A stretch of DNA of 63,180 nt, the filler included, from Kipferlia bialata (taxonomy: Eukaryota), in the NCBI GenBank assembly GCA_003568945.1. It is 6 parts of 6 records of this genome, joined end to end, with 100 filler letters (N's around TTAATTAATTAA, not from the genome) between each part and the next. Parts side by side here need not be neighbours in the genome. Positions count along the whole stretch, not along the records: positions 15,342 to 30,575 come from BDIP01000724.1; positions 30,676 to 35,486 come from BDIP01000725.1; positions 35,587 to 50,810 come from BDIP01000726.1; 3 more parts are not named here. The stretch is one strand, 5' to 3'. Positions within the stretch are counted from its first letter, which is position 1, and each line of letters opens with the position of its first letter. The position numbers and the translations under genes are program-made. This document shows positions 16,322-50,630 of the stretch, piece by piece. The notes under the pieces are model-generated. The model did not search any database and was not told where the DNA came from. It saw nothing but the letters and a program-made list of their open reading frames with translations.

Positions 16322-17776
16322 ATGTCCCTGTCCTCCTTCACCAAGTCCCTTGTGCACTGTGCCGATGGATCCTTCAAGAACATCATCATCGGCATCCAGG
16401 TACATACATACTTATAGTTAGTTACTATTACACCAACCCATATGTATATATACAGTACACTTGACACACACATATATTGTCTATATGGGTATACATCGAC
16501 AAATACAGACACCGTGGTGGTGGCATACTACAAGAACATCGTCATAGGCAGGGCAGACATATTGAGGTTAGACTCAGATGACATGTTTACAGTACACTTC
16601 CTCTTACCACCTTTATCTTCACATATATTGGTATTCAAGTTACAACGGTGTGTATATGGTCGTGGCGTTACATGGAGTGGTCTCTTGTTGCTTGTGTACC
16701 ATATTTGTGGCTCTTACCCAATATGTGTTGTTAGTCTCATTTAGTCCATTTTCAGTTTGGAACTGATATTTATATCCATTGCACATTGCCTAGAGGATAC
16801 ACTCTTTCTTGCTTTATGTATGTATCAGTATACATATACATATACACCGAGTTACCTAGATTGTTGAGGAACGGTTGTTCCCAAGACGTCTCTCTCTCTC
16901 TCTCTCAATCTCCCCCTCCCTTCCCCCTCCCCTATAACTCTCATCTTACCCTCAGGTCCAGAACCGTGCTGTCAACTCCGTTCCCCTCCAGCAGGTCAGT
17001 GGTTGTCTCTCTCTCTATCGCTACACTCTTATATATTCCCCTCTCTCTCTCTCTCTCTCTCCCCCTCCCCCCTCTCTACATCCTTATCCTCCTCCAGCAG
17101 GTCAATCTTTATCATTCTCTGTTTTCTTTTCTCTCTCTCCTTCTGCCAAGTACGGCTGCTCCATCAACAGCAGTATTCCCCTCTCTCCCTCTCTCTCTCT
17201 CTCCCTAACCCCTTATTGCAGGCCCTGACCAAGTACGGCTGCTCCATCCACACTTCTCTCTCCCCTCCCCCCCTAGCAGGGGCCCTATACCCTCTATTCT
17301 CTCCCCCTATACCCTTATGGCAGGCCCTGACCAAGTACGGCTGCTCCATCCACACTAGGGTTGGTCTCCACGACGTCGCCGGCAACTACTGCTCCCCCAA
17401 CGGTATGTGTGTATTTGTCTTATACATTCTCTTTACATATATGTGTACCTATGGTAGATTTAGAGGTACTGTAGTTCTCTCTCGCTCTCTCCATGGGTAT
17501 ATATACTTATATATTCTGCATCTAATATTAGGCACTGTCATTGTGACCTGCGAGGGCGAGGAGGCCCCCCGTCTCTCTCTCTGTACATATATATAAGTAT
17601 ACACATATACTCTACCTAGTATCAGGCACTGTCATTGTGACCTGTGAGGGCGAGGAGGCCCCTGTCCAAATATACTCTCTCTCTCTCTCTATTATATATA
17701 TATATACTATATATGTATCTATTGTGTATGTATCTAATATCAGGCACCGTCAATGTGACCTGTGAGGGCGAGGAGG

Positions 17777-17831
<55 letters not shown>

Positions 17832-18151
17832 ATACATATAAGTATAACCTATACTCTACCTAATATTAGGCACTGTCATTGTGACCTGTGAGGGCGAGGA
17901 GGCCCCTGTGCTTGAGATGATCAAGGCCATCAACGGCATCAAGGGTAAGTTTGTATATATTATTTGTTTATATACATATAGAGCGAGAGAGAGAGAGAGA
18001 GAGACTCTCGAGATCAAGGCCATCATACTTGTGTACATATATATTCACCCCAGGCGTCACTGAATATCTGCTATTCATAGAATTACTCTATATATAGGTA
18101 TATATACTCACCCCAGGCGTCAACTCCAAGACCATCGAGTTCGACATGTAA
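16322..18151 (+). CDS. Small (~101 aa) ACT-like protein resembling the bacterial 'iron-only hydrogenase system regulator' (TM1266-related) family, 5 exons
   Basis: Exons 16322-16399, 16956-16994, 17324-17402, 17870-17944, 18117-18151 splice in frame to MSLSSFTKSLVHCADGSFKNIIIGIQVQNRAVNSVPLQQALTKYGCSIHTRVGLHDVAGNYCSPNGTVIVTCEGEEAPVLEMIKAINGIKGVNSKTIEFDM*. Not visible in the ORF track. Family assignment is from memory of the LTxYGCxIxTRxGLH...CSxNG motif. Confidence 0.75.
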
Positions 18152-18437: not shown

Positions 18438-20756
18438 ATGAAGCTTATCCTCGTTATTGCCGCCCTTGTGGTAAGTTCAACCCTATTAGAGTGTTATTTA
18501 CTTGTATTTATGGCCTTTTCAATGAAGATTGGTCCATACCGGGGGTGATTGACGATGTATGCTTCTTTGTGGGTCTTTTCCCGTTATTAGATGATTTGTG
18601 GTCGTTAGTGGATCACTTAAGATGTATGAATTACATTCATATGTCTCTTGTGAGCCTATGTGTCATGACATGTAGTGTATTGGTGGATTTCCATACAGTC
18701 AACATGGATTGGTAACTGTCTTGCTTCTCAATCGTCTCTCTCTCTCTCTGAGTGTGCATTTCCTCCTCTCACCATAGGCCCTGGCTGCTTGCCTGCCCTC
18801 TGAGTTCCAGCAGTTCTCCATTGCCTCTGTCGAGACCTCCCAGGTATCATATACTTTAGTATTATATATATATACTATTCGCCGCAATGTATATATAATA
18901 GATGTACATTTATGTATGTACTTATTAATTGCCTATATATGTGTGTCCAGCAGTTCTCCATTGCCTGCTGTACATACACCAAGTACATACACTTCTATCA
19001 CACAATGGGAGTCGGAGTGTTTTTATGAATAGATAAATATACATGCATCTCACCCTTAGACCGATGGCCCCTCCCCCACCCCCGCCCCCATTAGGAGCAC
19101 TGTACAGGGAGTGGACATTGACGTCCTCGTCAACATCGGTATGTACAATATATGTACACACTCATATACCCCCCCCCCTTTCCTCCTCTCTCTCTCTCCC
19201 TCTAGCCCCTCATTTCAGGAAAGGCTGCCTGGACTATTGTCAATGACAACAAGTCCGTGTTCAACTACGACTCCGACTCTGCCTACATCGTGCCTGAGGG
19301 TGAGTATATGGTATATATAGTAAATATGCATCATATATACATTGGTTGTAGTAGACAATTGTGTATGTACTGACACATATCTGTACTCATTTTAGACATC
19401 ACCAACTGGACCCAGCTCCGGTACTATACATATGTATTCAGTTACATATCAATATATTCATATATACATAAGTATATACAGTATGTATATATACACATAT
19501 ACTCACCTTAGGAATCACCAACTGGACCCAGCTCGAGTACTATACATATGTTTATATATGGTATTAATTACATATCAATATATACATAAGTATATATAGT
19601 ATGTATTTATACATCTTCTCACCCTAGGCATCACCAACTGGACCCAGCTTGAGTACTATACATATTACAATTTATATGTATATATATTCAATTACACATT
19701 AATATGTATATATTTACGTATATATTGTATGTATATATACTTATACTCATCCTAGGCATCACCAACTGGACCCAGCTTGAGTACTGGAGCCCCCCCGTCT
19801 CTGTAGGGTGAGTCTCTCTCTCTCTCTCTTCCTCTAGCCCCTTATATTCAGCTCAAGGCTGAGTGTCAGTATCTCTCTTTCTCTCTCTCTCTCTCTCTTC
19901 CTCTAGCCCCTTATATATATATTCAGCTACAAGGCCGAGCTAGTCTCTCTCTCTCTCTCTCTCCCTCTAGCCCCTTATTTTCAGCTACAAGGCCGAGTGG
20001 AAGAACGAGCTTGGCCTCCACATCTGCGACTTTGAGTGGGCCCTGATGTACACATACGGAGGTATATATGAATATATATATTAATCATTATAGAGAGTAC
20101 ATGTATCTATGTATATATGTATATGTATATATCTGCGACTTTGAGTGGGCCCTGATGTACACATACGGAGGTATATATATATAGTATACACACTATATAT
20201 TAGTACTCTCTATTCAGAGAGAGATAGAGTCTATGTATCTGCGACTTTGAGTGGGCCCTGATGTACACATACGGAGGTTTGTATATAGTATATGTATATA
20301 TTTGTACATGTTCTCTGTAGTATAGTATCATCGTCATAGTATGCTCATATATATATGCTAACCACTAGGAGAGTACAACGATGCCGGCCAGTACCTGTCC
20401 CACGTCACCATTGAGCCCAAGGTATATATATAATATGTATAATATATATTATACCTATATATAAATACTATACAATATATACTCATAGTATATGTATATG
20501 TATCTGTCCCCCGTCACCATCGACCCAAGGTATCTCTCTCTCTCTCTTTCTAGACCCTTTCCCTCACCCTAGCACGTCAACCTCGACTGGGGCTACTCTG
20601 CCAATGTCCATGTCTCTCTCTCTCTCTCCCTCTACACCCTTTATTCACCCTAGCACGTCAACCTCGACTGGGGCTACTCTGCCAACGTTCAGGTCACCAT
20701 CCCCGCTGACCCCGTCAACCTCGGTACGATACTCTCTCTACACTCTTATACTGATA

Positions 20757-20789
<33 letters not shown>

Positions 20790-20964
20790 GCACCCAAAAT
20801 ATTCTGTAAATTCTTCCTAAAACTGACCGTGTCAACCTCGTTATGATACTCTCTCTCTCTATCTCTCTCCTCTAAGTCTTGCTATTGCTGTATTTTCCAT
20901 GATCATCCACTGCCTCTCTCTCCCTCTACACCCTTATTCCAGGCTCCACTGAGACCCCCCGTTG

Positions 20965-20996
<32 letters not shown>

Positions 20997-21439
20997 TACA
21001 CCCTTATTCCCCTCTACACCCTTATTCCAGGCTCCACTGAGTCCCCCATTGCCGGAATCGAGATCAGGTACAAGAGAAGATACATATGTCTGTTTATCAC
21101 ATACATTACACCTCTCATTCACTCTCCTTCCTGGTGTTTCTCTCTCTCTCTCTCTACACCCTTATTCCAGGATGGTCGTTGACTTCACCTACCTCGGATT
21201 CGACGAGGGCTCCTGGACCTACCACGTGAGTGAATCTCTCTCTCTATTTCTCTCTCTCTCTCTCTACACCCTCATACTCCTCTCTGGTGGAGCAATAGAC
21301 TTCTTCTATTCCTCTCTCGCTCTCTCTCTCTCTCCCTTCACACCCTTTCTTCTATTCCTCTCTCTCTCTCTCTCTCTCTACACCCTTTACTCACCCTCAG
21401 TGGTTTGTCCAGGGTGACGGCGCCTACCAGGTCCTGTAA
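18438..21439 (+). CDS. Secreted hypothetical protein with signal peptide, 11 exons
   Basis: Spliced reading MKLILVIAALV|ALAACLPSEF...|...DVLVNIG|KAAWTIVNDNKSVFNYDSDSAYIVPEG|ITNWTQLEYWSPPVSVG|YKAEWKNELGLHICDFEWALMYTYGG|EYNDAGQYLSHVTIEPK|HVNLDWGYSANVQVTIPADPVNLG|STESPIAGIEIR|MVVDFTYLGFDEGSWTYH|WFVQGDGAYQVL*. All junctions GT-AG and phase-compatible. Confidence 0.85.
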
Positions 21440-22164: not shown

Positions 22165-24934
22165 CTACCGTCTCCGTGTGGATGCCTTCTTGATGGTCCT
22201 CCTCTTCTCCCTGTCACCCTTCTTGGGGGGTCTAGCTAGGGGGTTAGGGTGATATATACAATATCAACATACACAAATTGATGGCTAGGAGGTTAGAGAG
22301 GTATATAAAATCATAACAAAATACATACATATATACACAGACACCAGTCATAGATATATTGTAATATATAGTATGAAATGTGTGGTCACACTTCTTGGGG
22401 GGTCTGGCTAGGGGGTAAGATATGTAGTATGTAGTATATAGTATACAACAAGTATAATACTAAACAATACTAATACATATAGATATTTACCTGATGCTGC
22501 CCTGGCATTAGAGCCCACTACTATATTAACTAATATATTATAATATATGAATCAAAAAAATGTATAATTGATTAATATAATTAATATAATTAATACTAAT
22601 ATATATATATACCTGATGATGCCCTGGCACCAGAGCCCCTATAATGTAACTATCACATTAGGTGAACAAATATATATGTCTTATCAATTATATTTAATAT
22701 AGTGGTCCATTCATAAGAATAAGTATTACCTGATGATATATATGTGTAGTAATGTACTGTGATTATATAGTTATTAATTTACCTGACGATGCCCTGGCAC
22801 TAGAGCCCCTAGTGCTACGTCCACTGGGACGCTCTGGAGTCAGTAAGATAAATATAGTACTCATATACAATGATATCACTAGAATGAGTGTGGACATGTG
22901 AAGATAATAGAGGATTAGTACCCATAGCTTACCTCCACTGAGACGCTCTGGAGTCAGTTAGACAGAGAAAATATGAAACTCTTACTGTCGTACAAATAGT
23001 AATGTATAATACTAGGCCATAATACTAATCGTTCAATGGTTGTATAATAATTGATTTATACTTGATGATAAATGAACCCTCACCTGATGATATGGGTGTT
23101 GGCCCCCTAATGGGCTCAGGGGATGGAGACAGAGGTGAGATTGGCCTTCTCTGCCGCATGGAGGAGTCTAGTTCATTCATGGTCCTATGATTAGAACTTA
23201 ATTATGCTAAACTAGTACAACTGCACGGTTCTATATTAATACTGTACCATAAACACATTATTACGTACAACAAACAACACAATTATACATATCATAATAA
23301 CACACCTCTGCAGCTTCTTGATGAAAACTCTCTCTCTCTCTCTACACTCTCATATTCCTCATATATATATATATATGTATGTATATATAACATACACACC
23401 TCTGCAGCTCCTTGATGACAGTCTGGTTAGGAGACCAATAGTTTCTAATACAATTGTTATATGTATATATATATATATATGTATATATATATAGTAGTAC
23501 CATAATATAGATAATACATATATGTATATATAGTACCTCTGCAGCTCCTTGATGACAATCTGGTTAGGAGACCGAAGCTCCCTCAGTCTCTGGGTCTCTG
23601 AGCCCATGTCTCTACCCCTCAGAGAGTCTCTCTCCCTCTGGGAACGGAGCTGACATGAGACTATATAAAAATATGAATTAATAAATTTAGATATACATAT
23701 ATATATATCCCCCTTACAGAGTCTCTCTCCCTCTGGCTGCGAAGCTGAGTGGTGAGTAACAGGTGTAGAAACGATTGAGTAGTGAGAGAGAGAGAGAGAG
23801 AGATCTCCAGTGTGTCTGTCAAAGTGAGTGACAGGGGCAGAAGCTATATAACTATACACTCACACATATACATCCCTATATATATATATATGTGTGTGTG
23901 TGTATATATAAGATATATACTATCTATACCTCCGGTGTGTCTGTGAGAGTGAATAAAGGGTCTAGAGAGAGAGAGAGAGAGAGAGAGATACCTCCGGTGT
24001 GTCTGTGAGAGTGAGTGACAGTGGCAGACGAGCATCGGCCATCATCTTGGACCTAGGCCTAGAATAAGGGTGTAGAGGGGGAGAGAGTAGCAACTCCATC
24101 ATCTTGGACCTAGGCCTAGAATAAGGGGCTAGAAGGAGAGAATAAGGGTGTAGAGGGAGAGAGAGAAAATGCGAATGACAAATAGTTGATCTTCAATGGT
24201 GGTTTATGGAACTACTAATATGCAAGAGACAGAAACGGAGAGAGAGAGAGAGAGAGAGAAAAGTACCTGAGAGGGGGAGTCACGGCTCTCTCTCTGGCCC
24301 TCTGCTCCCTGCGCATCTTGCCTAGGATATTAGGGGTGTAGAGGGAGAGAGAAGGACCAAGAGAGTAGTAACAGAGAGGTACCTTTTCCCCCACCAATAC
24401 TACATATATGGATACTCACACTTTACAGGTGTTCTCTATGTAATCACGTAAATACTGTATACATAGTATATATAGTATACGTATAGTATATATACAGTAA
24501 TTTAGTACCACGTACCTGATGATAGTGCTCTCCCCTCCACCCCGGGTGACAGCTCAGCCACCAGACGCTCAGTGGCAGACATGTCTTCTGCATATTAGAG
24601 AGAGTATGTAAGAAGGGAGAGAGAGAGAGAGAGAGAGAAGTCAGCCACAAGGCGCTCGGGAGCAGACATATCCTCTGAAGAGTCAGAGAGATTTATGTAT
24701 ACTCATAGATATAGATAGAGATTCTTATACATATAGTGAGAGAGAGAGGTCAGCCACAAGGCGCTCAGTGGCAGACATATCCTCTATAGGGTTAGAGTGT
24801 ATCGGTATATGAAGACAGAGAGAGAGAGAGAAAGAAACAGGACACAAGGCGCTCGGCGGCAGAAATATCCTCTGAAGAGTCAGAGATATATAGAAAATAC
24901 ATGCAAGTATACCTGCCGTTCTGGCCATCCTGGC

Positions 24935-24968
<34 letters not shown>

Positions 24969-26666
24969 CCCCTCTATCTCTGTATAGTCTATATATGTTC
25001 GTACCTGCCGTTCTAGCCATCCTTGCTTCCTCTCTCTGGAGCAGTCTCTTCAGACCAGAGCTCTTGGCCTCACTGCCTGACATAAAGGGTGTAGAGGGAG
25101 AGAGACAATAAGGGTGTAGAGGGAGAGATGGTAATGAAACCAAAGAGAAAGATAGTTGATACCTCTGACTCTGTCCCCTAGACTGTTCACTCTCTCTCCC
25201 TGTCTGCCAGTGGTCTCTCTGGACATTAAGGATGTAGGGAGGGGGAGAAATACTAAAAGTGTAGGGAGAGAGAGACACTAAGGGTGTCGGGGGAGAGAAA
25301 GAGATACCAATATAGCTGTATAGACAGTGTATCATGCCTCAGCTCCCTGATGTCTCTGGTGGTCATAGACATATACTTTGATACACACACACATATATAT
25401 ATACAATTATACATAGACATATAGACATGTATACCTCAGCTCCCTGATGTCTCTGGTTGTCCTGTCAGCTGTCCTGACACGCTCCTGACAATAAGGGTGT
25501 AGAGAGAGAGAGAGAGAACAGTCTTGAACACTAATGAAGGGTGAAGAGAGGATGGAGAGAGAGAGATATGTCGCGGTAAAGTGGAATAGTCTCTCGCGTT
25601 ATCCATACCTCTCTCTCCTGTGCGAGCAGTCTGTTGACTCTCTCCATATTGGCGGTGGAAGCGTCCTGTCTATCTGCCAGATCGGCCTATAATAAGGGTC
25701 TAGAAGGGGAGAGAGAGAGAGAGAGATGACTGGCCACCATGGCAAACCGAAAACGGTAATAAAGTATATATGTAGTAGTATATATACATACATTTATCTT
25801 TTATATTTAGTATATATACATACATTGGTACATTGGTACAGGGGGCCAACTCCAGACTGGCAAACAGGACACTGCCACAATAGAATACTATTATATATAC
25901 ATATACTATTTGTATAGCGTATATGTATAGTGTAATAAGGGTCCAGAGGGGGAGAGAGAGAGAGATACCTCCAGACTGGCCACCCTGGCAAACAGGACAC
26001 GGTTGTGGTTGTCCTGCTCCTGGAGTGAGATATATATGAAAATGGTTAGTGGATATGCATAGAGAGAGAGAGAGAGATCAATACAAATATACATTATGGC
26101 ATATGTTTCCTATATCATGGTATATATATAGAGAGATCCTAGAAGGTGAGGGGCACTTATATATGAAGATAGTGTACATACAGAGAGAGAGAGATATTAG
26201 GTAGACAGATATTGAGAGAGTAGAAAGGGATAATGAATAGAGAAGATACCACATAGAGGATATGGTTACCTCGAGCATACGCTCTCTCTCCCTCTCCCTC
26301 TCCCTCTCAGCCTCGATAGCAACAAGGCGCATGGACTCACTAAGAGTCAGCAGAAGTCAAGAGAGAGTCACCAGAAGTCAATTAACTATATATATCAGGT
26401 TGTGGATTATTACCTCTCTGCTTCTCTCTCTCTTTCCCTCTGCTCTAGCCCCTTAATGAGGTCACGCTGGGTCTCAATGACAGTGTCCTGGCGTAAAAAG
26501 GGTGTAGAGAGAGAGAGAGAGAGACGCAGAGAAGAAGCCGAGACAGAAGGAAAGAGAAGGAAAGTGTACCTGAGCATATAGAGAGGGAGAGAGTGAGAGA
26601 GTGAGTAAGAAGGTTTACCTGGGCGTTCTGCCTCTCCACCACATTTACCAACAGCATACAACGGGT

Positions 26667-26702
<36 letters not shown>

Positions 26703-27383
26703 CAGACATGTAGTGTATGCAGTACACAGAGAGTGAGTAAGTAGGCACCTGGGCGTTCTGCCTCTCCACCACGTTGACCATGAGCTTCTCCATGCCTGTA
26801 TTAAGGGTGTAGAGGGAGAGAACTAAGGGTGTAGGGGGAGAGACACAAAGAGAAATNNNNNNNNNNNNNNNNNNNNNNNNNNNNNNNNNGGGGAGAGACA
26901 CAAAGAGAAATTGAGAGTGTTGACCATGAGCTTCTCCATGCCTGGTATTAAGGGTGTAGGGGAGCGAGAATGAAGGGTGTAGAGGAAGGGAATAATAGTA
27001 TTATATAAATATAGAATAATAGTAACCTGTAATAAGGGTGTAGAGGGAGAGAGAATTAAGGGTGTGGGGGGGGAGAGAGAATGAATAGTGAAGAGAAAGA
27101 TAATACTTGTAGAGTGCGAAGAGAGAGAAAAAAATGTGACGAGAGAATATAAGAGTGAAGAGGGAGAGAGACAGAAATAGTACTAATACCCCTTCGACCA
27201 GGTCTCTCAGACTTCAATTCTCTAGAAGGTATACATATACAAACATTAACTATATATATATATACTTGGATTCCTTCAAAGACAGTATTATTGTACAAGC
27301 AAATATATGAATACCTTCAACCAGACCTCTCAGGCGCTCAGTCTCCTGTCTGGAGGATCGGAGCTCACGCCTAGTGGTTAGAT

Positions 27384-27419
<36 letters not shown>

Positions 27420-27420
27420 G

Positions 27421-27453
<33 letters not shown>

Positions 27454-28070: not shown

Positions 28071-28109
<39 letters not shown>

Positions 28110-28675: not shown

Positions 28676-28710
<35 letters not shown>

Positions 28711-29036: not shown

Positions 29037-29076
<40 letters not shown>

Positions 29077-30440: not shown

Positions 30441-30575
30441 TGTTTATGAGATACGATATAGTATATATATAGACTGTACAATATTCCTACATACTTTACA
30501 AATACATATAATATATATATGGCTAGCACTGTCGCTGGCAAAGAGCAACCTGATTGTGGAGAGGAAATGGTCTGA

Positions 30576-31853: not shown

Positions 31854-31894
<41 letters not shown>

Positions 31895-36738: not shown

Positions 36739-36795
<57 letters not shown>

Positions 36796-39700
36796 GGCAT
36801 CCTTGTCCTGGGGTGAGGAACACAGCAAGAGTGATTCAGATGCTGCCAATGTGATTTGAAGTGTATTGAAGTAGAATTCCAATGTACATATATATATCAC
36901 GCACAAAGAGGCCTCCATGTCATATGTATGCACACATACCCAAATGCCGCTATCTCGACTTGCAAACATATATGGTTTGTGGTAATAGTGTTTTAGTGAT
37001 CATATATATATACCTGCACCCAGCCCCTTGATGTGCCTGCCTCCTCGCGACAGTACAGGAACAGAAGGTGCCGGATCTGGGGTGAGTATCCGCCCCGAGT
37101 CATCATTGGAATCAACCACTGATACATGTTTGTGAAAACGCATGTGTTGATGAATAGACAGTAATTCACTCACCCATGGCTCACATGTCATGCTGAGGCT
37201 GGGCTCCCCTTGGTCATTGGTGTACAGGGTGCTGGCACCGGCCTAGTATTAGATACATGGATAATGCAAGAATCCAAGAGGTAAGACTTGTGATCCAAAG
37301 AGGATACCATCGAGAGAACAGAGTGACATAGGGTCCATCAAACTGATCATCAAGTACAAGAACCTGACCTAAGGCAGACTCCGTACTGAATATACATATA
37401 TATATATATATACTGTAACTCACCTCCAGCAGACTCCGGATTGTCCTCTCGTCATCTCCCCTGCTCAGTGCAATATGGAGGGGGACAACGGCGGAAGGTA
37501 GTCTTGAGTGTGAGTATGTTACTGTACACAGAGATAGTATAGCAGGAAACACACGCAGAAGGTATCACCGTCGCACTGAAATATCATCCACATACTACAT
37601 GTAATTTAATAGAGTAATGATGATATACAACATATATACCTCGTTCTCCTTGGGTCTGGACTGGCCCCTGTCCTCATCAAGTATTAATATCCAAATATGA
37701 CTACACATATACCTACAATTGCTACTCCACTTATACCATACCTTGTCCTCCTTGGGTCTGGACTGGCCCCTGTCCTCAGCATCAGAACAAGGGCCTCGAG
37801 GGACTTGTGCAGGACAGCAAGGCTAGGGGTGAGAGAGTGTGATATATATATACATATGCCTCGAGGGACTTATGGAGCACAGCAAGGCGAGGGATGAGAG
37901 ACTCATACATAACTCAACATCAGGAGAGTCAGATTCTGGAAAAATGTGAACAGTATATTACCAAATATGTATATATAGAGGAGTATCATAGTATGATGTG
38001 TCGAGGGACTTAACGAGGACCTTGGAAGTTCGGAAGGAAATAGGGAAACAAGAACAATTATACTAAATATAGAGAGAGAGACATATAGAGAGATAAACAG
38101 AGGCACATATTACCTGATTGGGGAGTGGTAGTTGACGTATTGGGTATGCATCTATACTGGATAGTCTCCTAGAAGATATGGATATACATACCAGTATATA
38201 CATACACATATATATGTATATACTCAATACCTGATTGGCGAGTGGTGGTTGACGTCCAGCCTCTCACAGTACTCGGGGATCAGCTGACCCCTGGCAGACA
38301 CAACCTAAGGTGAATGAATACACAGACATATATAGAAATATAGAAATAGAGAAATACATATAGCTGACCCCTGGCAGACACAACCTGAGGTAAATGAATT
38401 GATGGGTCCCCCACACCCACACCGGAGACATACATCGATACTTCCAATCCAATAATCACTTGTGGTTGTTGGATGTGTATGGTAGTGATATGTATTTGAA
38501 TATACCATCTATCAATTTGTATATTCGCGATCCGAGAAAGAAGTGTAAATGAGTCCTTGGTAGTGTAATATACTCAACTATCCAAATATATATACTCATG
38601 CAGCATCTATGTAGATACCTTGAGGCACTTGTGGTTGTTGGATGTGGCCAAGATGTGGAGGGGGGAGATGAGGTCCTGGGAGTGAGGGTGTACTGACTAG
38701 GATAATGAAACTATATTGTCAGTATCGTTGGAGACAAAGAGAGCGTGAACAGTACTGTATGTAATATGTAACACTACAATTAATTAATCTATACTATAAT
38801 ATAACTAATAGCACTCTAAACACCCACCTGGTCTATGGCGTCCATGCTGGAGTGGTAGCTCAGCAGGGCATCCAGGACAGCGGGGTCACCCCTCTCACAG
38901 GCTACGTGGAGGGCAGTGCGTTCACTGATATAAGATACATATACATATAAGGTAGTCGTGGAACAATATGGAGATCGATATGCCCCGGTATCCAGACTTA
39001 TGGAAGTATCAGTAAGTGTCGAATTAAGAAATAGTCGGGTAAAACATACACATGCACTCACCGCAGGTCCCTGGTATCAACGTTAGCCCCAGCTGTGATG
39101 AGCAACTTGACCACAGTGGCAGAGCCATGCCTATACATGAGAGAGGGAGAGAGAGAGGGAGAGAGAGAGAGAGAGAGACAGAGAGAGAGGATGCGTGTGA
39201 TGAGCAACTTGACCACAGTGGCAGAGCCGTGTCTAGAAGGTTAGATTGATACGCATATTTAGAGAGAGATTCAACAAGGAGAAGCCGAAGGACAGAGAGC
39301 GAGAGAGAGTGTAATCACACGTACCTAGCCGCGTAGTGCAGTGCTGGTTCGTTGAATGGGGGACCACATGTCTTGAGAGAGGCACCGCCCCTGAGGAGGA
39401 TGGAGACAACGTCACCTGGAATGGTAAGATATATGAATGATATATAAGAACTACAGAATGCAGTAGTATACATACAGGTGTACGTATATGTACATAAGAA
39501 ACACGTGCGTGTATGTATTAGTACACCCACCCATGTTTCTCTTGATGGCTATGTGCAGTCGTATATATATAGTATTAGCATATGTATGTGTATATATTAA
39601 TATAGTTGTATACATATACATATATAGCACCCACCCATGTTTCTCTTGATTGCTATGTGCAGGGGGGTGCCTGAGTTGGACAGGGCATTCACGATGCTGT

Positions 39701-42381
39701 TCTGGTCCTGAGGTGAGATACAGATTCACATACACATAAATATATATACATGTACCTGTGTATCGATCCCCTGTGCCTCATACAACACATACGTGTAGGT
39801 ATATATATATATATATATACACTGTATATATATATATACTTCTCTGCCCTACCTGCGTGTCAATCCCCTGTGCCTCATATAGCAGTAGTGACACCCTGGC
39901 AGCTGTGTCCCCATCTGTGTCAGACACACTCTCGCTGTCCTCTCTCTCCCTCTCAGCATCACCAGTCTCCACCACAGTGTCCTCAGCGGGTACACCCTCT
40001 CCCTTTTCCTCTCCCTCTCCCTCTCTCTCCTTGTCATCTAGAGAGACAGGAGAGGGAGAGAGACGGGGGTTAGAGGCTGAGGCAGAGAGAGTGGAGACGC
40101 CGTCTCCGTCTGCCTCCAGTGTACTCTCTCTCCCCCTGTCTCCCTTGCTATGGGTGTGTATGGGGTTGAGTTCACACAACCTGTGCAGAACGGTGGTGCC
40201 AGAGCTTGAAGTTAGGAATACAGTAGGAATAAGTGCAATATATAGATCAGTCAACACTGTAGTCGGTCTCTCTCTATATATAAAACATATGACATATGAC
40301 ATATTTACGCACTTGTCGAGTGGCAGGTCTATACGTGCCCCGTGTCTGACCAGCATGCTGACTATGTCACTGTTGTACACCTGGAGGGCACTGGAAGTCA
40401 GTATCAATGAGAAGATCAAACATATACGGGGTGAGATTTAACGAAAATACTTGGGATGAATACATGGTATATCATTGTTGTGTAGCCGAAGGATACAGGG
40501 TTAAGGGAATAGGTAAGAATATCAGACAACTCCACAATTGTGGACTAGAAAATGTCGCTATTGTGTTGTTGATACACGAACCGGAATAGTGGTGACTCGT
40601 GGTATGCACTGACAGCATCAGGATCAGCACCTGGCATTGAGGGGGTAGACAATAACAAGGGAGATAGAGAGAGAGAACAATTCGAATCCGTCAAGAATAC
40701 ATGGACATGGACTTTGAAATGCATAAAGAGAGAGAAAGAGAGAGATACCCACCTGCCGCCAGGAACAGCTCCACTGTCTCCCTCACCCTCTCTGCGTGCA
40801 CGTCCTCTCTCTGCCTCTCCCTCTCTCTCTCCCTATCACTCATCCCTTCTGGGAGTGTCTTCCTAGCCAGCACAGGGCTGGACATGCAGGATAGAGACGC
40901 GGAGGCAGTGCTGCTGGAACTACACGCACAGAAGAGAGCCGTCTCACCGCAGAACGTACGGCTATCGGGGTAGGGCGTTCGCCGTAGCAGGCGGCCTAGG
41001 GATGCGAGAGCGGATGCAGGGGATACGGTGGCAGACTGTATAGGGCAGGTAGAGGGGTGGCATGCGTTGGGGTGAGAGCATGTGTGCCTGAGGGTGAGGG
41101 AGCTCAAATAGCACAGGATGTATATGTACATGTACATATAGATACCTGTGGTAGTGTCTGTCTGCCAGGGCTGTCTCTGCATATGTGTGTAGGAGGTCCC
41201 GGCCAGTGCCACTCCACAATCTGGAGGTGAGAACCTTTATATATACATCGATAGTATATATATATACATAGTGTATATTCATAATATATACAGTAACTCA
41301 TATATATGTAGTTGTGAGGAATGTCAGTATCTACCTACTCTCTGCCCCGTGTATAGGCACATATCACAGGTACACACAATACGCATATGTACATATTATG
41401 GTACCAGTGTAGTCATGCCTTTATATATATATATGAATATCTACCTAATCTCTGCCCCGTGTCTCGTGGCCACTATGTCTGAGGATGGGTCATGTCTGCA
41501 TGCACATGGGGTGGATGCACCAAAGGACAGGATCTGCTGCACATTGGCACCTAGGGTGAGATATATACATATGTATATATATATATATCTATCTATCTAT
41601 ATATATATAGTGACATATAATGTAAGTGACAGGGGGTGGATGCACCACTGTCACCGAAGGACAGGATCTGCTGCACATTGGCGCCTGCCAAGTGAGAAAA
41701 CACACCCACAAACAACAAACATATATTACATATATGGAAACATAGACCTGGCGTGTGGACTGATGTCTTTGGTATGCCCTCAAGATACATATGTCATATC
41801 TATAACTATCTATAATATACTATATATATATATTTATATATATATCCACCTGGCGTGTGCACCGATGTCTTGGGTATGCCCTCAAAGGAGAACACAGTCA
41901 CAATGCCAGGCGGGCTGGGGTCAGGAAGATAATAAGAGAAGTAACACGAACAAACCACTATCCACAATTCATGTGGTTAACAATACACATAACTCTGCCC
42001 CTGGGTGTGGCTGAACACACCCACACACACACACACATATATATATGTATGTGTAAGTGTGTACATATATGGATATATGAGTGGATATAATACCTCTGCC
42101 CCTGGGTGTGGCTGAACACCCACACGCACTCTGCTGCAAAGGTGATGGAGTCGACCTGGGGTGGGGACGGTAAGAGGATACGTGGTAGAGAGGGTACATC
42201 CTACTATAACCATCGGATATATAGTGTATGTAGACATATGACACTCACCACCGTGTGTGTCTCATCACATTATGATGCACATATACATAATAGTGTGGTG
42301 CAATTGAAAGGACTATTCTACATATACTCACCACCGTGTGTGTCTCCTCGTGGCACATGCCTATACCACTCTCATATTATT

Positions 42382-42426
<45 letters not shown>

Positions 42427-42880
42427 ATGTAGACATATGACATATACCACCGTGTGTGTCTCCTCGTGGTACATGCCAATGCCACTCTCATAGTGGGATA
42501 TCTGCGAGGGGGCAGTCCCAAGGACAGCAGTATCGCCAGCAAGGTGACCTAAGGTAAGCTATATACAGGGAATAAGAGGGAGACTATAAGAGATACACAT
42601 ATAATCACACAGTACCTTTGAACGGCCCGCCTCGTCCAGACTACTTGTAATACACATATATAACTGTATATAATACTGTAATACACATAGATATAAGATA
42701 TACATATGTATTATTTGACATATATATGGGCATGTACCATACCTGTGAATGGTCCTGCTTCGTCCAGACTGCTCCTCTGCAGCAGAGTACCCGTATATGT
42801 GACACTGGGCATGGAACCAGAGGCAAGGGTGTCGAGGGAGAGACCAAGGGCCTGGGTCAGATGTGAGAAGTAGTCGGACA

Positions 42881-42925
<45 letters not shown>

Positions 42926-45900
42926 ATACATAGAGGAGGCAAGGGTGTCGAGGGATAGACCAAGGGCCTGGGTCAGTATAGCATAAGATAATACACATAA
43001 TAATTACCAACTGTATTGATAGTCAGTTGTCCTATGTCCATAACTGCACACCACACATCTTCTTGAGATCAAGGAGTGGAGCAGACAATTACCTGCGGGG
43101 GTGTGACCTGGGACACTGGGACTGGGCTGAGTGACACTCTGTAGAGAGACAGCTCAGTCCCCACAGCCACCCACACAGTGTCACCACGGACACCTATTCT
43201 GTCGGCACCTTGTGTTAGGATGTATGTACGTATATCTATATAAATATACATGTAGACTCTTCAATACAGTTGAATATTGAAATGTGCATTTTCGTCGTAG
43301 GCAGTAAAAGTACAAATACAGGTACTGTATTTGTATACACGAACATACACACAAACCCTCACCTGATGCGAGTGTGAGGCATGGTGACACCTCTGCATAC
43401 TCGTGTGAGGGTATGTGGTCAGGGATGGTGAAGAGAGAGACTATCCCTGTACTGGAGGAACTGGAGGTCTCTCTCTCCCTCCCCGGCTCGCTACTGCCCT
43501 TCCTGAGCACACATAGCACCTCCTTGGCACCTGACTCTGCAGCGATGGACATGGGGCAGACCTAGAGTTATAAGGAAGACAGTCGGAAGAGACACATACA
43601 TATATATACAATATAGGATATATACTTGTATATGATGTGTGTATAGGACCTGACTCAGCAGAGATGGACATGGGGCAGACCTGAGGTGAGAGGGATGAAT
43701 AGAGAGCTATGTATATATAATGAGAGATATATGCAAAATACTCTACATGGACATGGGGCAGACCTGGAATATGAAGGGGGCAGACCTAGACTAAGGAACA
43801 CAGAGTAAGACTTAGTAGGAAGTATGGATCCCCACACATATGTATATGTATGTAAATATCCATACCTGCGTCACAGTTAGGGACGGGTGTGCGAGAGAGA
43901 GAGACGAGTGCAGGGCACTGGGTGACAGTCTGAACGTGGCATGTCCAGAGTAGTGACACGTGGGTGCACCCTCACTGTACACTGTGTTGAGGGTACCCAC
44001 ATAGAAGGTATCAGCGGCATCCACAAGGAGTACACGCTGCACATCTCCCTCTCTCTCCTTCTCACTATCCTCCTCACCCTCTGCTAGGGGTAGCACTGCC
44101 TTGGGGGTGCAGGGCAGGTCACACACCCCACACCTCACCAGGGAAGAGGGTAGGTCCCTAGTCGCGCTAGTCACTGCGACATCACCCTCTTCAATAGGGG
44201 TGGGGGTAGAAGGGGAACCGAACCGATACACGGCCACTGTCCCCCCCACTACGTGCCACAGCCTGTCACCAACCGTGTAGAAGGCAGAGGAAGGGTGTCT
44301 AGAGGAACTAGAGGGAGTAGAGGCAGTAGCAGTGCCACTTGGAGTACCAGGCGTACTGACTGGCGTATCCCTACCACCTATACTAGTAGTGGGTGTAGAT
44401 ACACCACCAGTGGCATGGGAGAGTGTGGCGGCGCTAATACCCCTAGGTATGTGGAATGGTCCCTTGTATGTACCAGTCACCACATCTACAGAGTGGACAG
44501 TGTACGCATCAACAAGAGGGGTCACTGGGGTAGTATTTTCTGCGCTGTTTCGCGTATCAGTCTCAGTCTGAGTGTCTAGGGATGGACACTTCATGCCGTT
44601 GACGTGTGTGAAGACAAACAGACGGTGGCCAAGCTGAGGGTGAGATGGAGCAGAGAGAGAGAGAGACGGTGGCCAAGCTGGGGGTGAGAGAGAGACAGAA
44701 ACAGAGGAAGAAGAGACAGAGAGAGAGAGAGACGGAGGAATAGACGAGGGTGAGAGAGAGTGTAATTTCAATGGCAATGAAACTGCATACCCACCTTACA
44801 CACGTGTTGCACTGTCCCCTTGTTGACTGTCCTAACCCGTACAGGGTGAAGATGACCAGGCGCCATGCCCTGAGTGCCTAAGGCCTCTCTGGTGGTAAGT
44901 ACGAAAAGTATAATCATACATAAATATATTTCAATGTATATATATCATGTGGTAGACGTCCATAAGGAGTCCCTGAAGGTTAGTACTATCTGAATAGTTC
45001 ACCATATCAACAGAATGCATCACAGTATGTACCTGTCCAAGTCTCTACTGGGCCTATCTCTTCCGTGTCTTGACATTGACATATATGAATATATACTTAT
45101 ATATACTACCTGTCTAAGTCTCTACTAGGCCTATCTCTCCCATGCCTTGACATTGACACAGCAGGTGAGGGGGGGACAGACAGGGGAGGGGCACAGGGGT
45201 CGGTGTCTAACAGGTCTAGTGTAAGTATAAATAGACAGAGAGAGAGAGAGAGAAACAGGGAGAGAGGGGAGGGGCACAGGGGTCGGTGTCAAGTAGGTCT
45301 GGTGTAAGAAACTGCACAAACTTTGAGAGAGAAGCGGAGAGTGCTATATTTAGTACATGTACTACATACTATATGAAGTATAGTAATCACATGTGTGTAC
45401 CTGTGGGAATGTAGTCATCGAACAGTGACTGACACCTGATGTGGGCATCCTGGCATGGGAGGACACCCCTACTATCTCTGGGGGTAAGGGAAAGACGGTT
45501 ATATATATAGAGAACACATATGAGAGGGAAATGAGGGGGAAGAGATTACCAGGCGAGGACACCTCTGCAATCCCTGGGGGTGAGAGAAGGTGAAAGAAAG
45601 CATAAATACCAATACGAAGGGTAAATGAAGAGCACAAACACAACCAGAGAGGGAAAATGTATGCTACAGCAACAGTACCTAATGAATGGGCTTGCCCCCG
45701 CCTCCAGCAGTATATGTCAACAATACGATTCACAAATACACACAATGACAATTCATATATATCTCTACCTTATGAATGGGCTGGCCCCTGCCTCCAGTAG
45801 TGTATGTACCAGGGTATATAATACATATATATATATACGTCTACATATCTATATACGTATCGTGTATGTATAGAGGTATATACCTAATGAATGGGCTGGC

Positions 45901-48900
45901 CCCTGCCTCCAGCAGTNNNNNTGTATAGAGGTATATACCTAATGAATGGGCTGGCCCCTGCCTCCAGCAGTGTCTGTACCACATGGCCAAAGCCCTGTCT
46001 GGCACCCATGTGCAGGGCTGTCCTAAGGGTTAGTACATATATACACTAGGGTGTACAGTAACTTATGTGGGTATATACAACGGCCAAAGCCTTATCTGGC
46101 ACCCAGGGAAGGTATGTATAATGAATTGATACACACATATATATATACTACACGTGTATACAGTATTGGTACCTTCCCCTGACATCCACCGCGTCAATGT
46201 TGATGTCACCCCGTGTCTCACTGCTAACTCGCGTATCCCCTGCCCCTAGACCCATGTGGGACAGGAGGAGATTGACCATAGAGAGGTCACCCCGGCTGGC
46301 CTGGCATGAGTTTGGAACTAACTATAAGGTAGGTTCATAGAGATTGCATTGAAGGTGAGACAGAGTGTGCGTGCGTGAGAGAAAGTGACACGAAACCGTA
46401 CCGCCAGGTGGAGCAGTGTCTGATCATAACAGTTCCTGTGCCCCAGCCCAGCCCCACCCTCCAGCAGCACTGCAGCCAGCTCTGGGTAGTGGTTGGACCA
46501 TGCTAACTCAACGGGGCCCGCCAGACCCCTAAGCTGCTCCCTTACATCACTCTCTCTCTCCCTATGAGTAGGGGATGATAGTAGTGTGCACAGGGAGGGT
46601 ATGGTGTCTGAGGCCTGGGCTGCGGCACCTAGGGCGAATAGGGATAGAGAGTCATGGGTAGAGGTGGGGGAGGGGGAGTCGCGTGTGCCGCGTAGGGGAC
46701 TGTTGAGGCCTGAGGCACGTGCTACACCCCGTCTCTCTCGCCTGGGTGTGCCTGGAGGTCAGAAAGAATTACATTACACTACAAATACAATGCACAACAT
46801 AAATTCAATACAATGAAGGTCTCTCTCGCCTGGGAGTGTGTGGAGTTAGGGCGCTTTCATAGTATACTACCACTCGTAAATTTGTTTTTACCAACCATCA
46901 TGGCCAAGGAACAATAGATTACACTATGCACCTATACCTACTACAGGTGTCCTTGGTGTAGATGGCACTGTGAGTGCTGCCTTGATCAGGGGTGTCACCC
47001 AATGCCTGATGGACAGGGGGGCGGCAGCGGCCTTGGATAAGAATGGTAGATATATAGGTAACCTACATGCATATTGGATATCACACAAATGAAAACATGG
47101 GCCGGCAGCGGCCTAGGGTATGGTATGATACATATATCGGACGGACAGGTATGTAAATACATGAGGTTAAATGTATATACCTTGTGAATGGGTGTCTCTC
47201 TGGCCTCGTCGTAACTGAAGAGAGAGGCCCCCCCTCTCAGCAGCACCACAAGTGCCCTGGCCCTGGCCATGTCCTCCTCCATCCTAGTCTCTCTCTCTCT
47301 CTCCTTACTCTCACTACCCTCTGCCTCCTCCCCTCCCATCATACCCCAGAATGTAGTCTGGATGGAGTCATCACACGGTGTGGTGGGGGATGTACCGTTG
47401 GTAACAGTGCATGTACTAGATGCACTAGATGTACAAGAGGGACTTGAGGTACTAGAGGGTGACAGGAGGAGGGCAAGAGGGGTACGGCCTGGGGTCAATA
47501 CAATGGGAAGATATGAATGATGATACAAGAATTGTATCTCTAGCAAATACACGCTCACCTGCGTTATCTAAGACGTCTGCTGTCCCCTCTGTGAGAGACT
47601 ATATAGTGCGATATATTGATATCACATACCTGCACAATCCAATGCGTCTACCATCCTGAGCCTCCTCTGTGAGACTGCTCTCTCTCTCTTTCTCTCTCTC
47701 TCTCTATGTATACATATATATATATATATATATGCATATATATACATACCACTCACCAGCACTATCCAACGCATCCACCATCCTGAGCCCCCTCTGTGAC
47801 ACAGCACTCAGGGACAGTGATGAGGAGAGGGACAGGGACAGAGACCCAGTGGCACTCGGAGATGCATCGATGTCGGCTATCCTACTGTTAGAATACACAC
47901 ACACACAGTATATATAGTATATATCCATATACACTATTCACCAACGCCAGCTAGAGAGTATTAGGCTTCTATATAGGAATATATACATATACAGATATAG
48001 ATTAGGGGACGCATCGATGTCGGCTATCCTGGAGTGAGGGTGTAAGTACATAGTATACTGTTATAGGTGGAGACACTGACAGGCATCTCATGGAACACAG
48101 TGAATAGAAAGTGTCATTGTACAATATATATATACATAGAGAGAGAGAGTATACTCTACCTGTTGAGTGTGTCCACCACAGCTGGAAGGCCAAGTGACAG
48201 CAGAGCACCTGAAGATAAGATACACGACTAAGTAGTATATATCTATACTCTAAACCACTTATAATCAGAATGCAGGAAGTATACAGGAATGATAACGTTC
48301 TTGTGCATAAATAGATGAACTATACCTGGGTACCGCTCGGCGCACAGGTGCAGGGTAGAATACCAAGGTGTATTCATAATATACAGAACATAGTGTATCT
48401 CCTCCAAGTTATATATATAAACTCAATATATATTATGTACCTGGATACCGCTCTGCACACAGGTGCAGCGGAGTGGTACCGGTACTGTCAGCCTACGAGG
48501 TAAGGAAAAGGGAGGGAGGTCACCCACGTCATTATACAATGCAACATGATGATACCGTGGAGTATATATACTGTTACCTTTGTGACGAATCCCAGCCACC
48601 GCCTGACCCTCCTCAGTGTAGCAACAGCCTTCTGGCTGTTCTTCTGGCTCCCCCTCCTGCCTAGAGACCCCTCCATGGCCTGTATCCTGGCCAGCTCTCT
48701 CTCCACACCCACACCACCCACAGTCACGCCCCACCTCTCTCTCTCCCTCTCCCTCCCACTATGCCGCAGTCTGTTCCTCCCGCTCTCCCTCTCCCTTTCT
48801 CTCCTGATGGTATCACTTGTGGCACTGCCTCTTCTGACTATGAAGCCTGGTATGCCGTACAAGAGGTGCTCTGCAACAGATATGAGACCTCTAGATAGAG

Positions 48901-50630
48901 ATAGAGAGAGGGGTGTCTGCTTGGACACCAGGGAGGGGCTGCCTTGGAGCATGGCAACCTGGGTGTCAGACAATATCAATATATACAACACACAATGCAA
49001 TTATACATATACTATACATATATATATATATATATAATAATACTATCGCTGCCCTGCAGCATGGCAACCTGGGATAAGATTACAATACTGTTCAACTATG
49101 AATATGCTATACATATGTACAGAGAGTACGCAAACACACCTGGTCCAGCCACTCCACCTGGGGCAGGGAGAGAGACAAGGGTGTATAAATACATATATAA
49201 CTAATATTACATATAGTAGTGCACTAGTATACTTGTCTATACACACACTACTGTAGCCTATCTCGGTCCAGCCACTCCACCTGGGGTAGGGAGAGAGACA
49301 GGGGTGTATAAATACATATATAACTAATATTACATATACTAGTGCACTAGTATACTGGTATATATACACACTAGAATAGCATACCTGGTCCAGCCACTCC
49401 ACCTGGGGCATGGATAGAGACAAGGGTGTACCCAGGATGGCATCGATCAGGGGGAGGGGGTGGGCTGGAGGGAAGGGAATGAAGGTGTACGTAGTAACTA
49501 CCAAAATAGAAATACATATGTTATCTTTGGGGGGGGGGGGGGGTCATGGGATGGTGTTGTGGAGTAGAACAATTACAAAAGGTACATAATACATCAGAGA
49601 GCCACTCCATACCTCCGATACATGCCAGGTGCAGTGCTGTCAATCCGGTCTGGGGGTGAGAGGTAGTATACACATATATATATGTGTGAATAGATAGATA
49701 GACCAGACTGGGGGTGAGGGGAAGGCTGGGATAGATACACATATATGTATATATATGGTATTTGTATTAATACTAGTATGTGCATATACATTAATAATAT
49801 ACCTGAGCATCTATGACCAGAATGTCGTGCACACACACACACACACAAATATACATATGTCATATATATGTATATATACATAATGTATATACATACACAT
49901 ACCTGAGCATCTATGGCCAGCATGTCATTAACACTACATCATACATATGCATAAATATATATATATATATACACACATATATATTGCATATACCCACCTG
50001 AGCATCTATGGCCAGCATGTCATGCACAGTCAGCATCTGTCTCAGCCTGGGTGTTAGGGTATATACAGAACGTCAGTATCTACTCATATATAAGTATCAT
50101 ATATACCTTCCAACTACAGATGTGATACCCCTCTTGACTGCCATGTAGATGGCTGCACATCTCAAGTACAGTATATACAAAACATAGATACATACTCTAT
50201 GTTCTTACTGTATAATACACTGTACCTCTTTACTATAGACACCATCCCCCTCTTGACAGCCATGTGGATGGGGGCACACCCCATGTGGACCTGACTGAGA
50301 GAGCCAATGTCTGGAAACCTATGTGTCAATAGAGTTTATGGATATGTATAATATGTAGTATGCTATTTGGAATGGTATGGTAGTCTTCCGTACATATGTA
50401 GGGAGCACAACGGATTATACAGAGTATACACAGACAGAGTATGTACAGAGTACACAGGCAGAGAATGCTCTGCCTGGGAGGGTACACACTATTATAGTAT
50501 ATGTCATACAATATTATCATATACTATATATATATATATATATAGCTAGTGTACCTAGGCAGACTAGACACCCCCTGGGCGGGTGTGGCCACAGTTGTGA
50601 TGTCACCAACAGTGCGGGACTTGATACTAG
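36097..50630 (-). CDS. Large ankyrin-repeat protein with C-terminal FYVE zinc finger, many exons, 5'-partial (possibly more than one gene)
   Basis: FYVE: GWVQ|DKDASLCMLCHGLFNAKSR|RHHCRHCGRVMCDACSVKK...|TKVRVCQSC (WxxD, RHHCR, RVC motifs). Ankyrin motifs TALHVACERGD, TALHMGARQGFGHVVQTLLEAGA, GLTALHLAC, TLLHLA. Stop 36097-36099. Confidence 0.85.

What the first reader, a model, noticed from the sequence alone, without database searches (positions are those of the whole stretch)
16322..50300. Pervasive polarised 'exon echoes': introns filled with single-splice-site copies of the adjacent exon
Seen: in four genes (16322-18151, 18438-21439, 22165-30440, 36097-50630) many exons are flanked by 1-3 truncated, slightly diverged copies separated by (AT)n/(CT)n tracts. 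In the cases traced, copies with branch point+AG+exon head lie upstream of the complete exon and copies with exon tail+GT lie downstream. Inference: introns here grow by tandem duplication across splice junctions, and this is tolerated because only the copy with both sites is recognised. That would mean exon-definition or recursive splicing, which is unexpected in a lineage with otherwise short introns. It could be an undescribed mode of intron expansion and exon birth.
Basis: partly seen in the sequence, partly recalled or inferred. Interest (0 to 1): 0.88.

Follow-up and report, generated by a model that had tools for sequence, protein, structure and literature searches.

The report
Introns stacked with once-working exon ends
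In four genes of the free-living protist Kipferlia bialata, 53 of 78 modelled introns carry short copies of the neighbouring exon's end, mostly with its splice signal; the RNA skips them at the eight junctions where it could be checked, and they differ from the exon mostly at silent positions, so they are likely leftovers of other working gene versions brought in by misaligned recombination.

Summary
Observation confirmed. 88 partial exon copies lie in 53 of 78 introns of the four genes, against 1 of 53 introns in five other genes. Heads always lie upstream and tails downstream, but any tandem duplication across one junction gives that polarity. DNA contigs cross several stacks at single-copy depth. 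RNA contigs skip all decoys at 8 listed junctions, including a stronger-scoring, in-frame acceptor. This favours exon-definition-like site choice; recursive splicing and exon birth are not supported. The copies are not simply decaying duplicates: 104 of 167 differences are silent (31% expected at random, 47% for duplicate-then-decay), and GT/AG survive while the donor-side flank is almost unrelated. Best reading: rare seed duplications, then turnover by misaligned recombination that brings in junctions of other working alleles (inferred; no second isolate found). It works like amphioxus 'mirages' and the human F7 intron 7 repeat, but is denser, lies outside animals and lacks homogeneous units. 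The scan noted the same pattern and the allele idea on other contigs of this genome.

The parts
16322..18151 (+). Gene 1: 5 exons (16322-16399, 16956-16994, 17324-17402, 17870-17944, 18117-18151), 101 aa; 7 echoes in 4 of 4 introns
   Evidence: All four joints in RNA contigs of two studies; frame; echoes
17222..17254 (+). Head echo of gene 1 exon 3: 33/33 identical, AG intact, scores above the real acceptor (6.2 vs 4.2); its use would add 34 codons with no stop, yet it is skipped
17532..17777 (+). Stack of three head echoes of gene 1 exon 4 (17532, 17626, 17744), all with AG
   Evidence: skipped by the RNA joint 17402/17870; one DNA contig spans 17327-17653
18438..21439 (+). Gene 2: 11 exons, 213 aa, hydrophobic N-terminus (signal-peptide-like, read by eye); 11 echoes in 6 of 10 introns
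   Evidence: frame; four joints listed in RNA contig X2 and a fifth implied by the piece lengths; 3' half modelled only
19396..19657 (+). Stack of three head echoes of gene 2 exon 5, all ending at exon base 30; identity 87, 93, 100% towards the exon
   Evidence: DNA contigs 18016-19652 and 19623-19780 without differences; RNA joint 19299/19756
20131..20276 (+). Two tail echoes of gene 2 exon 6, both 40/40 identical and followed by GT
   Evidence: skipped by the RNA joint 20061/20369
22165..30575 (-). Gene 3: at least 23 exons, 526 aa open frame (coiled-coil-like, read by eye), 5' end off the contig; 33 echoes in 17 of 22 introns
   Evidence: model from sequence only; echoes
29970..30021 (-). 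Tail echo of gene 3 exon 2: 52/52 identical to the exon, GT intact, intron flank no closer to the real one than unrelated introns (rank 0.31)
36097..50626 (-). Gene 4: at least 43 exons, 1862 aa, ankyrin repeats and FYVE domain; 37 echoes in 26 of 42 introns
   Evidence: model; Pfam Ank and FYVE; deposited protein KIPB_003687 agrees at 41 of 42 junctions
39196..39232 (-). Head echo of gene 4 exon 33 with an open in-frame read-through of 102 nt; the deposited annotation uses this decoy acceptor
   Evidence: not checked with RNA
41629..41684 (-). Head echo of gene 4 exon 25 with a 9-nt in-frame insertion and the same peptide on both sides of it
50107..50167 (-). Old tail echo of gene 4 exon 2: 72% identical over 61 nt, no indel, still reads as a similar peptide, GT intact
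49140..49308 (-). Two tail echoes of gene 4 exon 5, period 123, spacers 88% alike: a young whole-unit duplication
36416..36569 (-). Two tail echoes of the FYVE-coding exon 41, both 97% identical, GT intact

Best explanation
These are genomic, direct partial copies of single exon-intron junctions that the spliced RNA skips at the eight junctions checked; they likely begin as rare tandem duplications of about 110 bases and are likely renewed by misaligned recombination with other working alleles. Step 1 (inferred): an illegitimate join duplicates an exon end, its splice site and 30-160 nt of intron. Copies that hold both ends of an exon or stay inside one are likely purged, so one-site copies remain, with the polarity that tandem geometry imposes. 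Step 2 (shown for 8 junctions, mechanism inferred): the spliceosome takes the first donor and the last acceptor whatever their strength, likely by recognising the whole exon (exon definition, or reading the TA/CT spacer as intron). Step 3 (inferred): introns diverge so fast that two alleles can pair only through exon sequence, so echo and exon end are equally good partners. Unequal exchange then adds, removes or overwrites copies with the junction of another working allele while keeping the original breakpoint. Each echo is thus a recently working exon end with its own intact splice site and a foreign intron flank, and it decays only afterwards.
For: Silent bias: 104 of 167 unique differences in 86 echoes, against 31% at random and 47% for a dead copy beside a perfectly constrained exon (P 7e-5). 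It holds with trinucleotide context, vanishes in the two wrong frames, shows 1 stop against 5.7 expected, and 200 simulations of duplicate-then-decay reach at most 0.54. NG86 pS 0.176, pN 0.031, ratio 0.18 (bootstrap over 66 families 0.12-0.25). Cliff at the junction: exon side 84-100% per position, donor +3..+6 48% against 41% for unrelated introns, yet GT is kept in 33 of 45 and AG in 33 of 39. Decoy flanks score like real sites and far above other intronic GT/AG. Stacks share a breakpoint in 13 of 18 cases (5.8 expected, P 0.0006). Silent changes are GC/AT-symmetric (41:43), amino-acid changes lean AT in the echo (32:16). Fornicates lack NHEJ and Rad51A and keep two Dmc1 paralogues (PMC8516963, passages); Dmc1 tolerates mismatches (PMC8682777, abstract).
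Against: No second allele was seen. The DNA run shows no other letters over 15400-20400 and no conspecific sequence was found, so allelic diversity and recombination are untested. The bias is uneven: gene 4 57/81, gene 3 37/63 (P 0.07), gene 2 6/11, gene 1 4/12 (none). It weakens to 133/254 (P 0.012) when alignments are forced to the junction. Amino-acid changes are not more conservative than chance (P 0.19) and the direction contrast is borderline (P 0.07). There is no gradient of decay along the echo. The model needs introns to diverge far faster than silent sites, which was not measured between alleles. RNA covers 8 of 78 introns, as contigs, which drop rare forms. The deposited annotation reads through one decoy. 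One DNA joint (20081 to 20281, only 20 letters on its short side, in TA-rich sequence) skips a stack; it is probably spurious but unresolved.
Confidence: 0.55

Rival explanations
1. Role swapping within one lineage. Echo and exon end exchange by sister-chromatid or intrachromosomal recombination (collapse, re-expansion, conversion). An echo often becomes the working junction, so harmful changes in it are purged indirectly. No allelic diversity is needed.
For: Also predicts silent bias, kept GT/AG and shared breakpoints. Fits the lack of variation in the one DNA run. Some stacks are young whole-unit duplications (spacers 83-88% alike).
Against: Needs collapse or conversion of 30-nt repeats often enough for second-order selection (inference). 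Frequent conversion should also erase silent differences, yet pS is about 0.2 along the whole echo.
Confidence: 0.22
2. Plain tandem duplication of the same allele followed by neutral decay, with hypermutable low-complexity spacers (ordinary mirages; the first reader's implied route).
For: Direct repeats, fixed polarity, shared breakpoints, residual spacer homology (0.62-0.64 against 0.55); gene 1 shows no silent bias (4/12).
Against: Predicts at most 47% silent differences; 62% seen, above all 200 simulations. Does not explain GT surviving beside a flank at background identity.
Confidence: 0.09
3. Remnants of one past hybridisation or genome doubling: pieces of a diverged second gene copy were left beside the surviving one during loss of heterozygosity.
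For: Silent divergence is not significantly overdispersed (P 0.08); echoes are patchy between contigs.
Against: Stacks hold up to three differing versions, and differences private to one echo are also silent-biased (20 of 43 against 13.2, P 0.02). 16 of 86 echoes are identical to the exon.
Confidence: 0.08
4. The decoys are used: recursive splicing steps or minor alternative exons under selection.
For: 31 of 35 intact tail decoys read AG|GT, and 6 of these 31 have an upstream score in the range of real acceptors. 5 of 68 decoys give an open in-frame product. Mature RNA cannot exclude recursive intermediates.
Against: 63 of 68 uses would truncate; head decoys are not enriched for AG|GT; introns are at most 556 nt; the in-frame decoy at 17222 has no listed joint.
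Confidence: 0.04
5. Assembly stutter or concatenated haplotypes.
For: Short-read draft (PMC5874029, passages); two copies sit beside N gaps, one 100% identical across its gap.
Against: Single contigs of 125-1677 nt cross echo-to-echo and echo-to-exon steps with no differences, at depth 351-456 against 440 in the flank. That run may be the window's own source, so it is not independent data.
Confidence: 0.02

Closest known systems
Amphioxus 'mirages' (Adh3, globins BflGb6 and BflGb9; PMC3087553, passages; the original Adh3 paper was not held)
   Same: Tandem copies of either exon-intron boundary inside the intron, many with AG/GT, not disturbing splicing; turnover by unequal crossing-over proposed; the host is described as highly heterozygous.
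   Different: Mirage units of BflGb6 are 81-100% alike as units; here only the exon part is (median 93%) and spacers are near background. Two thirds of the introns of a gene against single loci. A metamonad protist, not an animal. 'Synonymous' does not occur in that paper's main text.
Human F7 intron 7 37-bp VNTR with silent 5' pseudo-sites (PMC1557585, abstract)
   Same: The most upstream donor is used although downstream copies are functional or stronger.
   Different: One homogeneous minisatellite, donors only; here acceptors behave in mirror image and units are heterogeneous.
Intron gain by tandem genomic duplication (Rogers model; PMC3265369 and PMC4974935, search listings only; described in PMC3087553)
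   Same: Local duplication around AG|GT changes gene structure without changing the protein.
   Different: That model makes a new intron inside an exon; here existing introns lengthen. Direct repeats at 131 junctions are not above background, apart from one 11-nt case.
One-sided invasion or unequal crossing-over between alleles (recalled; search listing only)
   Same: One homologous and one illegitimate end can leave a displaced copy beside the repaired locus.
   Different: Most stacks here share one breakpoint (13 of 18), which fits one seed plus repeated unequal exchange better than independent one-sided events.

Membership tests
Mirage minisatellites (amphioxus) | Direct tandem copies spanning an exon-intron boundary, at 5' or 3' boundaries | tested here: met
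   48 tail and 40 head copies, 0 of 156 inverted
Mirage minisatellites (amphioxus) | Extra AG/GT signals present but normal splicing kept | tested here: met
   8 listed RNA joints skip 13 echoes, 9 with intact sites; 70 of 78 introns unchecked by RNA
Mirage minisatellites (amphioxus) | Minisatellite-like units alike over their whole length (81-100% in BflGb6) | tested here: not met
   spacer-to-spacer identity 0.635 (21 pairs) against 0.547 for random pairs; 2 of 21 pairs reach 0.8. Filed as a variant that works like mirages, not as a plain member
Mirage minisatellites (amphioxus) | Copy-number differences between haplotypes or cells | not testable with these tools
   no second haplotype or isolate found
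Recursive splicing (ratchet points; features recalled) | Intronic AG|GT with a true acceptor upstream | tested here: not met
   5 of 33 head decoys start with GT (all exons 32 of 131); tail decoys average -4.5 against 2.6 as acceptors, 6 of 31 in the real range
Recursive splicing (ratchet points; features recalled) | Intermediates or lariats at the site | not testable with these tools
   only assembled contigs were available
Exon definition | The site next to a complete exon is chosen over equal or stronger sites that would give a shorter intron | tested here: met
   decoy >= real in 3 of 9 RNA-checked cases, 20 of 35 donors and 15 of 33 acceptors overall; innermost pairs would give median 125 nt against 307 used and 71 in echo-free genes
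Exon definition | Cross-exon bridge by SR proteins, U1-70K and U2AF (roles recalled); loss of one site affects the other | not testable with these tools
   PMC6679479 supplementary file 10 lists SR proteins and U2AF65 as found and U1-70K, U2AF35, SF1 as not found in K. bialata; no mutational test possible
Rogers-type intron gain by tandem duplication | A new intron bounded by the two copies of a duplicated exonic AG|GT segment | tested here: not met
   no echo abuts the far end of its intron (minimum 36 and 53 nt); boundary repeats of >=6 nt in 3.8% of 131 introns against 6.4% null

The most novel reading that the evidence does not exclude
Kipferlia introns archive population variation: a Dmc1-only, mismatch-tolerant recombination system pairs alleles only through exons, deposits other alleles' splice junctions in introns across the genome, and a reduced spliceosome that may lack U1-70K and U2AF35 ignores them by a non-animal form of exon definition. 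One genome would then record silent diversity of roughly 0.1 or more and betray hidden sex in a fornicate.
Probability: 0.35. Interest if true: 0.85.

Novelty: new variant of a known kind. Interest (0 to 1): 0.62.

Why it matters
Intron definition is thought to predominate in most protists (PMC2397502, abstract). Here are hundreds of natural competitions between a real and an equal decoy site, resolved for the outermost site, in a species whose spliceosome inventory is half the human one (87 of 174, PMC6679479). That makes splice-site choice outside animals directly testable with existing kinds of RNA data. The silent bias means the copies were under protein selection until recently. If they come from other alleles, a single culture gives evidence of recombination and high diversity in a relative of Giardia. 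It also matters for annotation: the deposited model of gene 4 reads through one decoy.

Tried and rejected
No whole genome was held, so nothing was counted genome-wide. No listed run is on record as RNA; X2 and X3 are guessed RNA, and their GT-AG joints support that. Contig depth cannot rank parts of a gene; my bound of about 26 against 3642 for the 17222 read-through is a hint only. Second isolate: a gene 4 exon found 0 relatives in metagenome contigs (164 pattern hits); the NAT10 exon found 57 loci, best segment at most 49% identical; among the 120 proteins listed, the next after Kipferlia is 42%. mRNA or cDNA origin rejected: echoes continue into their own intron, not the spliced neighbour (4.8 vs 2.6 and 7.0 vs 3.7 matches of 10). 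Weak decoy sites rejected. An automatic gene parser took echoes for exons, even in gene 1 against RNA, so genes 3 and 4 were curated by hand. My junction-peptide check gave 42 of 42 only because the echo codes the same peptide; the alignment shows 41 of 42. BLOSUM, direction and gradient tests were negative or borderline. Literature: searches listed no paper describing these repeats in Kipferlia or a silent bias in mirages; subscription papers are not covered, and the supplements of PMC3087553, PMC5874029 and PMC8516963 were not read and may bear on this.
Full report
Setting. The window joins six contigs through N/linker blocks. A long exon on the first contig is 100% identical to Kipferlia bialata KIPB_003676 (NAT10), and one in gene 4 to KIPB_003687. 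The contig with genes 1-3 is taken to be the same genome by inference. The genome paper reports a short-read assembly with 124,912 introns and AUGUSTUS models built with transcriptome hints, and 'duplicat' does not occur in its main text (PMC5874029, passages). No whole genome was on hand.

Gene models. RNA contigs from two studies give all four joints of gene 1, and one gives four listed joints of gene 2 (only 15400-20400 was laid; 15 joints are shown, 8 from RNA and 7 from DNA, and 2 more are hidden). Genes 3 and 4 were modelled by a parser and by hand. Complete copies join into single open frames, with ankyrin and FYVE matches in gene 4. The deposited gene 4 protein contains all 1862 modelled residues plus 34 from reading through one decoy, so 41 of 42 junctions agree. 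Gene 3 and the 3' half of gene 2 rest on sequence alone.

The observation. 88 copies lie in 53 of 78 introns, against 1 of 53 in five other genes, at a threshold passed by 0.16% of 3058 control pairs. All 48 tails lie downstream and all 40 heads upstream; none is a whole exon, none is inverted, none comes from a non-adjacent exon. The nearest decoy lies 57-187 nt from the real site, median 112. Each copy adds about 98 nt of intron. Echo-bearing genes have short exons (median 55-81 nt) and 7.5-15.6 introns per kb; the others have 1.3-6.9 per kb and introns of median 71 nt. DNA contigs cross several stacks without differences at single-copy depth. That run may be the assembly's own source, and one weak DNA joint skips a stack. 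Two copies beside N gaps were dropped, leaving 86.

Polarity. Duplicating [intron end + exon head] in tandem leaves the truncated copy upstream; duplicating [exon tail + intron start] leaves it downstream. Polarity therefore shows tandem origin, not selection or a splicing rule. The informative facts are the lack of two-site copies and the choice of site.

Site choice. With matrices trained on 53 introns of the five echo-poor genes, decoys score as well as real sites: decoy >= real in 20 of 35 donors and 15 of 33 acceptors. The 8 RNA joints skip 13 echoes, 9 with intact sites, 3 of them equal or stronger. Intron definition would favour the innermost pair (median 125 nt against 307 used). Decay of faulty RNA could hide decoy use, since 63 of 68 uses truncate, but the decoy at 17222 is in frame, open and higher-scoring and still has no listed joint. 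Contigs drop rare forms, so this shows the main form only. The first-donor rule matches F7 intron 7 (PMC1557585, abstract); the last-acceptor rule needs recognition across the exon or of the spacer (inference). K. bialata has SR proteins and U2AF65, while U1-70K and U2AF35 were not found (PMC6679479, supplementary file 10), which may reflect the draft. Recursive splicing is not supported by motifs and cannot be excluded from mature RNA.

Origin. The lead on silent changes came from earlier scan notes on other contigs and was tested here. Of 167 unique differences, 104 are silent; codon positions 1, 2, 3 carry 35, 22, 110. Random placement gives 31%; a dead copy beside a fully constrained exon gives 47% (P 7e-5). 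Context control, wrong-frame controls and 200 simulations agree. NG86 ratio is 0.18, or about 0.27 with the observed change types, below the floor of 0.5. The signal comes mainly from gene 4, is weaker in gene 3 and absent in gene 1 (12 differences). A second line is independent of codons: identity falls from 84-100% per position in the exon part to background two bases into the donor flank, and fades by about 20 nt on the acceptor side, yet GT and AG are mostly kept and the decoy flanks look like working sites spelled differently. A dead copy should lose GT as fast as +3..+6. Echoes follow their own intron, not the spliced neighbour, so they are not cDNA. Similarity stops abruptly at the inner end, and 13 of 18 stacks share that breakpoint.

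Mechanism. Shown: real copies, skipped at 8 junctions, silent bias, cliff, shared breakpoints. Inferred: a rare seed duplication; survival of one-site copies only; then unequal exchange through the exon-derived 30-odd bases, the only part that diverged alleles share, which overwrites or adds echoes with working junctions. From pS 0.13-0.18 and pN 0.03, the working-lineage path is about 2.7 times the dead path, which would need silent allelic divergence of roughly 0.07-0.14 (my arithmetic). Loss of NHEJ and Rad51A with two Dmc1 copies in fornicates (PMC8516963, passages) and Dmc1's mismatch tolerance (PMC8682777, abstract) make this plausible but do not show it. The main rival, role swapping within one lineage, fits most of the same data. 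Against the allele step: no variation in the one DNA run, no second isolate, and three secondary tests negative or borderline.

Comparison. The arrangement is published as amphioxus 'mirages' (PMC3087553, passages), and scan notes report it in other invertebrates (not checked). It works like mirages but fails unit homogeneity, so it is filed as a variant. It is not Rogers-type intron gain. My searches listed no paper on it in Kipferlia; subscription papers and unread supplements are not covered.

Verdict. Real; new variant of a known kind; interest 0.62.

Noticed in passing
window 16322-18151 (+): Gene 1 exon 3 matches the prokaryotic NCBIfam family NF052672 (CPF_0552; E 1.4e-9, a fragment below the cut-off). 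If the gene came by lateral transfer, its four introns and their echoes arose afterwards.
   Followed up: partly
window 33348-33396 (+): A 49-nt intron with an 11-nt direct repeat across its two junctions, the only such case in 131 introns; a candidate recent intron gain by duplication or repair.
   Followed up: partly
window 45550-45573 and 43650-43680 (-): Two head echoes have both AG and a GT right behind them (24 and 31 nt); the 24-nt one is frame-symmetric and was below my score threshold (read). Candidates for cassette exons.
   Followed up: no
window 47032-47112 (-): A short head echo below threshold gives an open 81-nt read-through into gene 4 exon 11; the deposited model does not use it.
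   Followed up: partly
window 60766-61110: A 203-nt-period duplication, 79% alike over 147 nt, at the start of the last contig; no gene model was built.
   Followed up: no
window 50960-52736 (+): Intron-containing gene with an AnmK (anhydro-N-acetylmuramic acid kinase) Pfam match in one exon (E 0.003, below cut-off); possibly of bacterial origin.
   Followed up: partly
window 52997-60403 (-): A 1945-aa acidic, cysteine-rich protein with 24 short introns and no echoes; possibly a surface protein.
   Followed up: no
window 2663-6003 (+) and 6793-11081 (-): NAT10 and an IFT140-like gene (label recalled, no call), both intron-poor and echo-free.
   Followed up: partly
introns at 20500-21400 (+) and 24000-28000 (-): Many acceptors share a (CT)n-CTACACCC-TTAT motif, itself often duplicated just upstream of the AG.
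   Followed up: no
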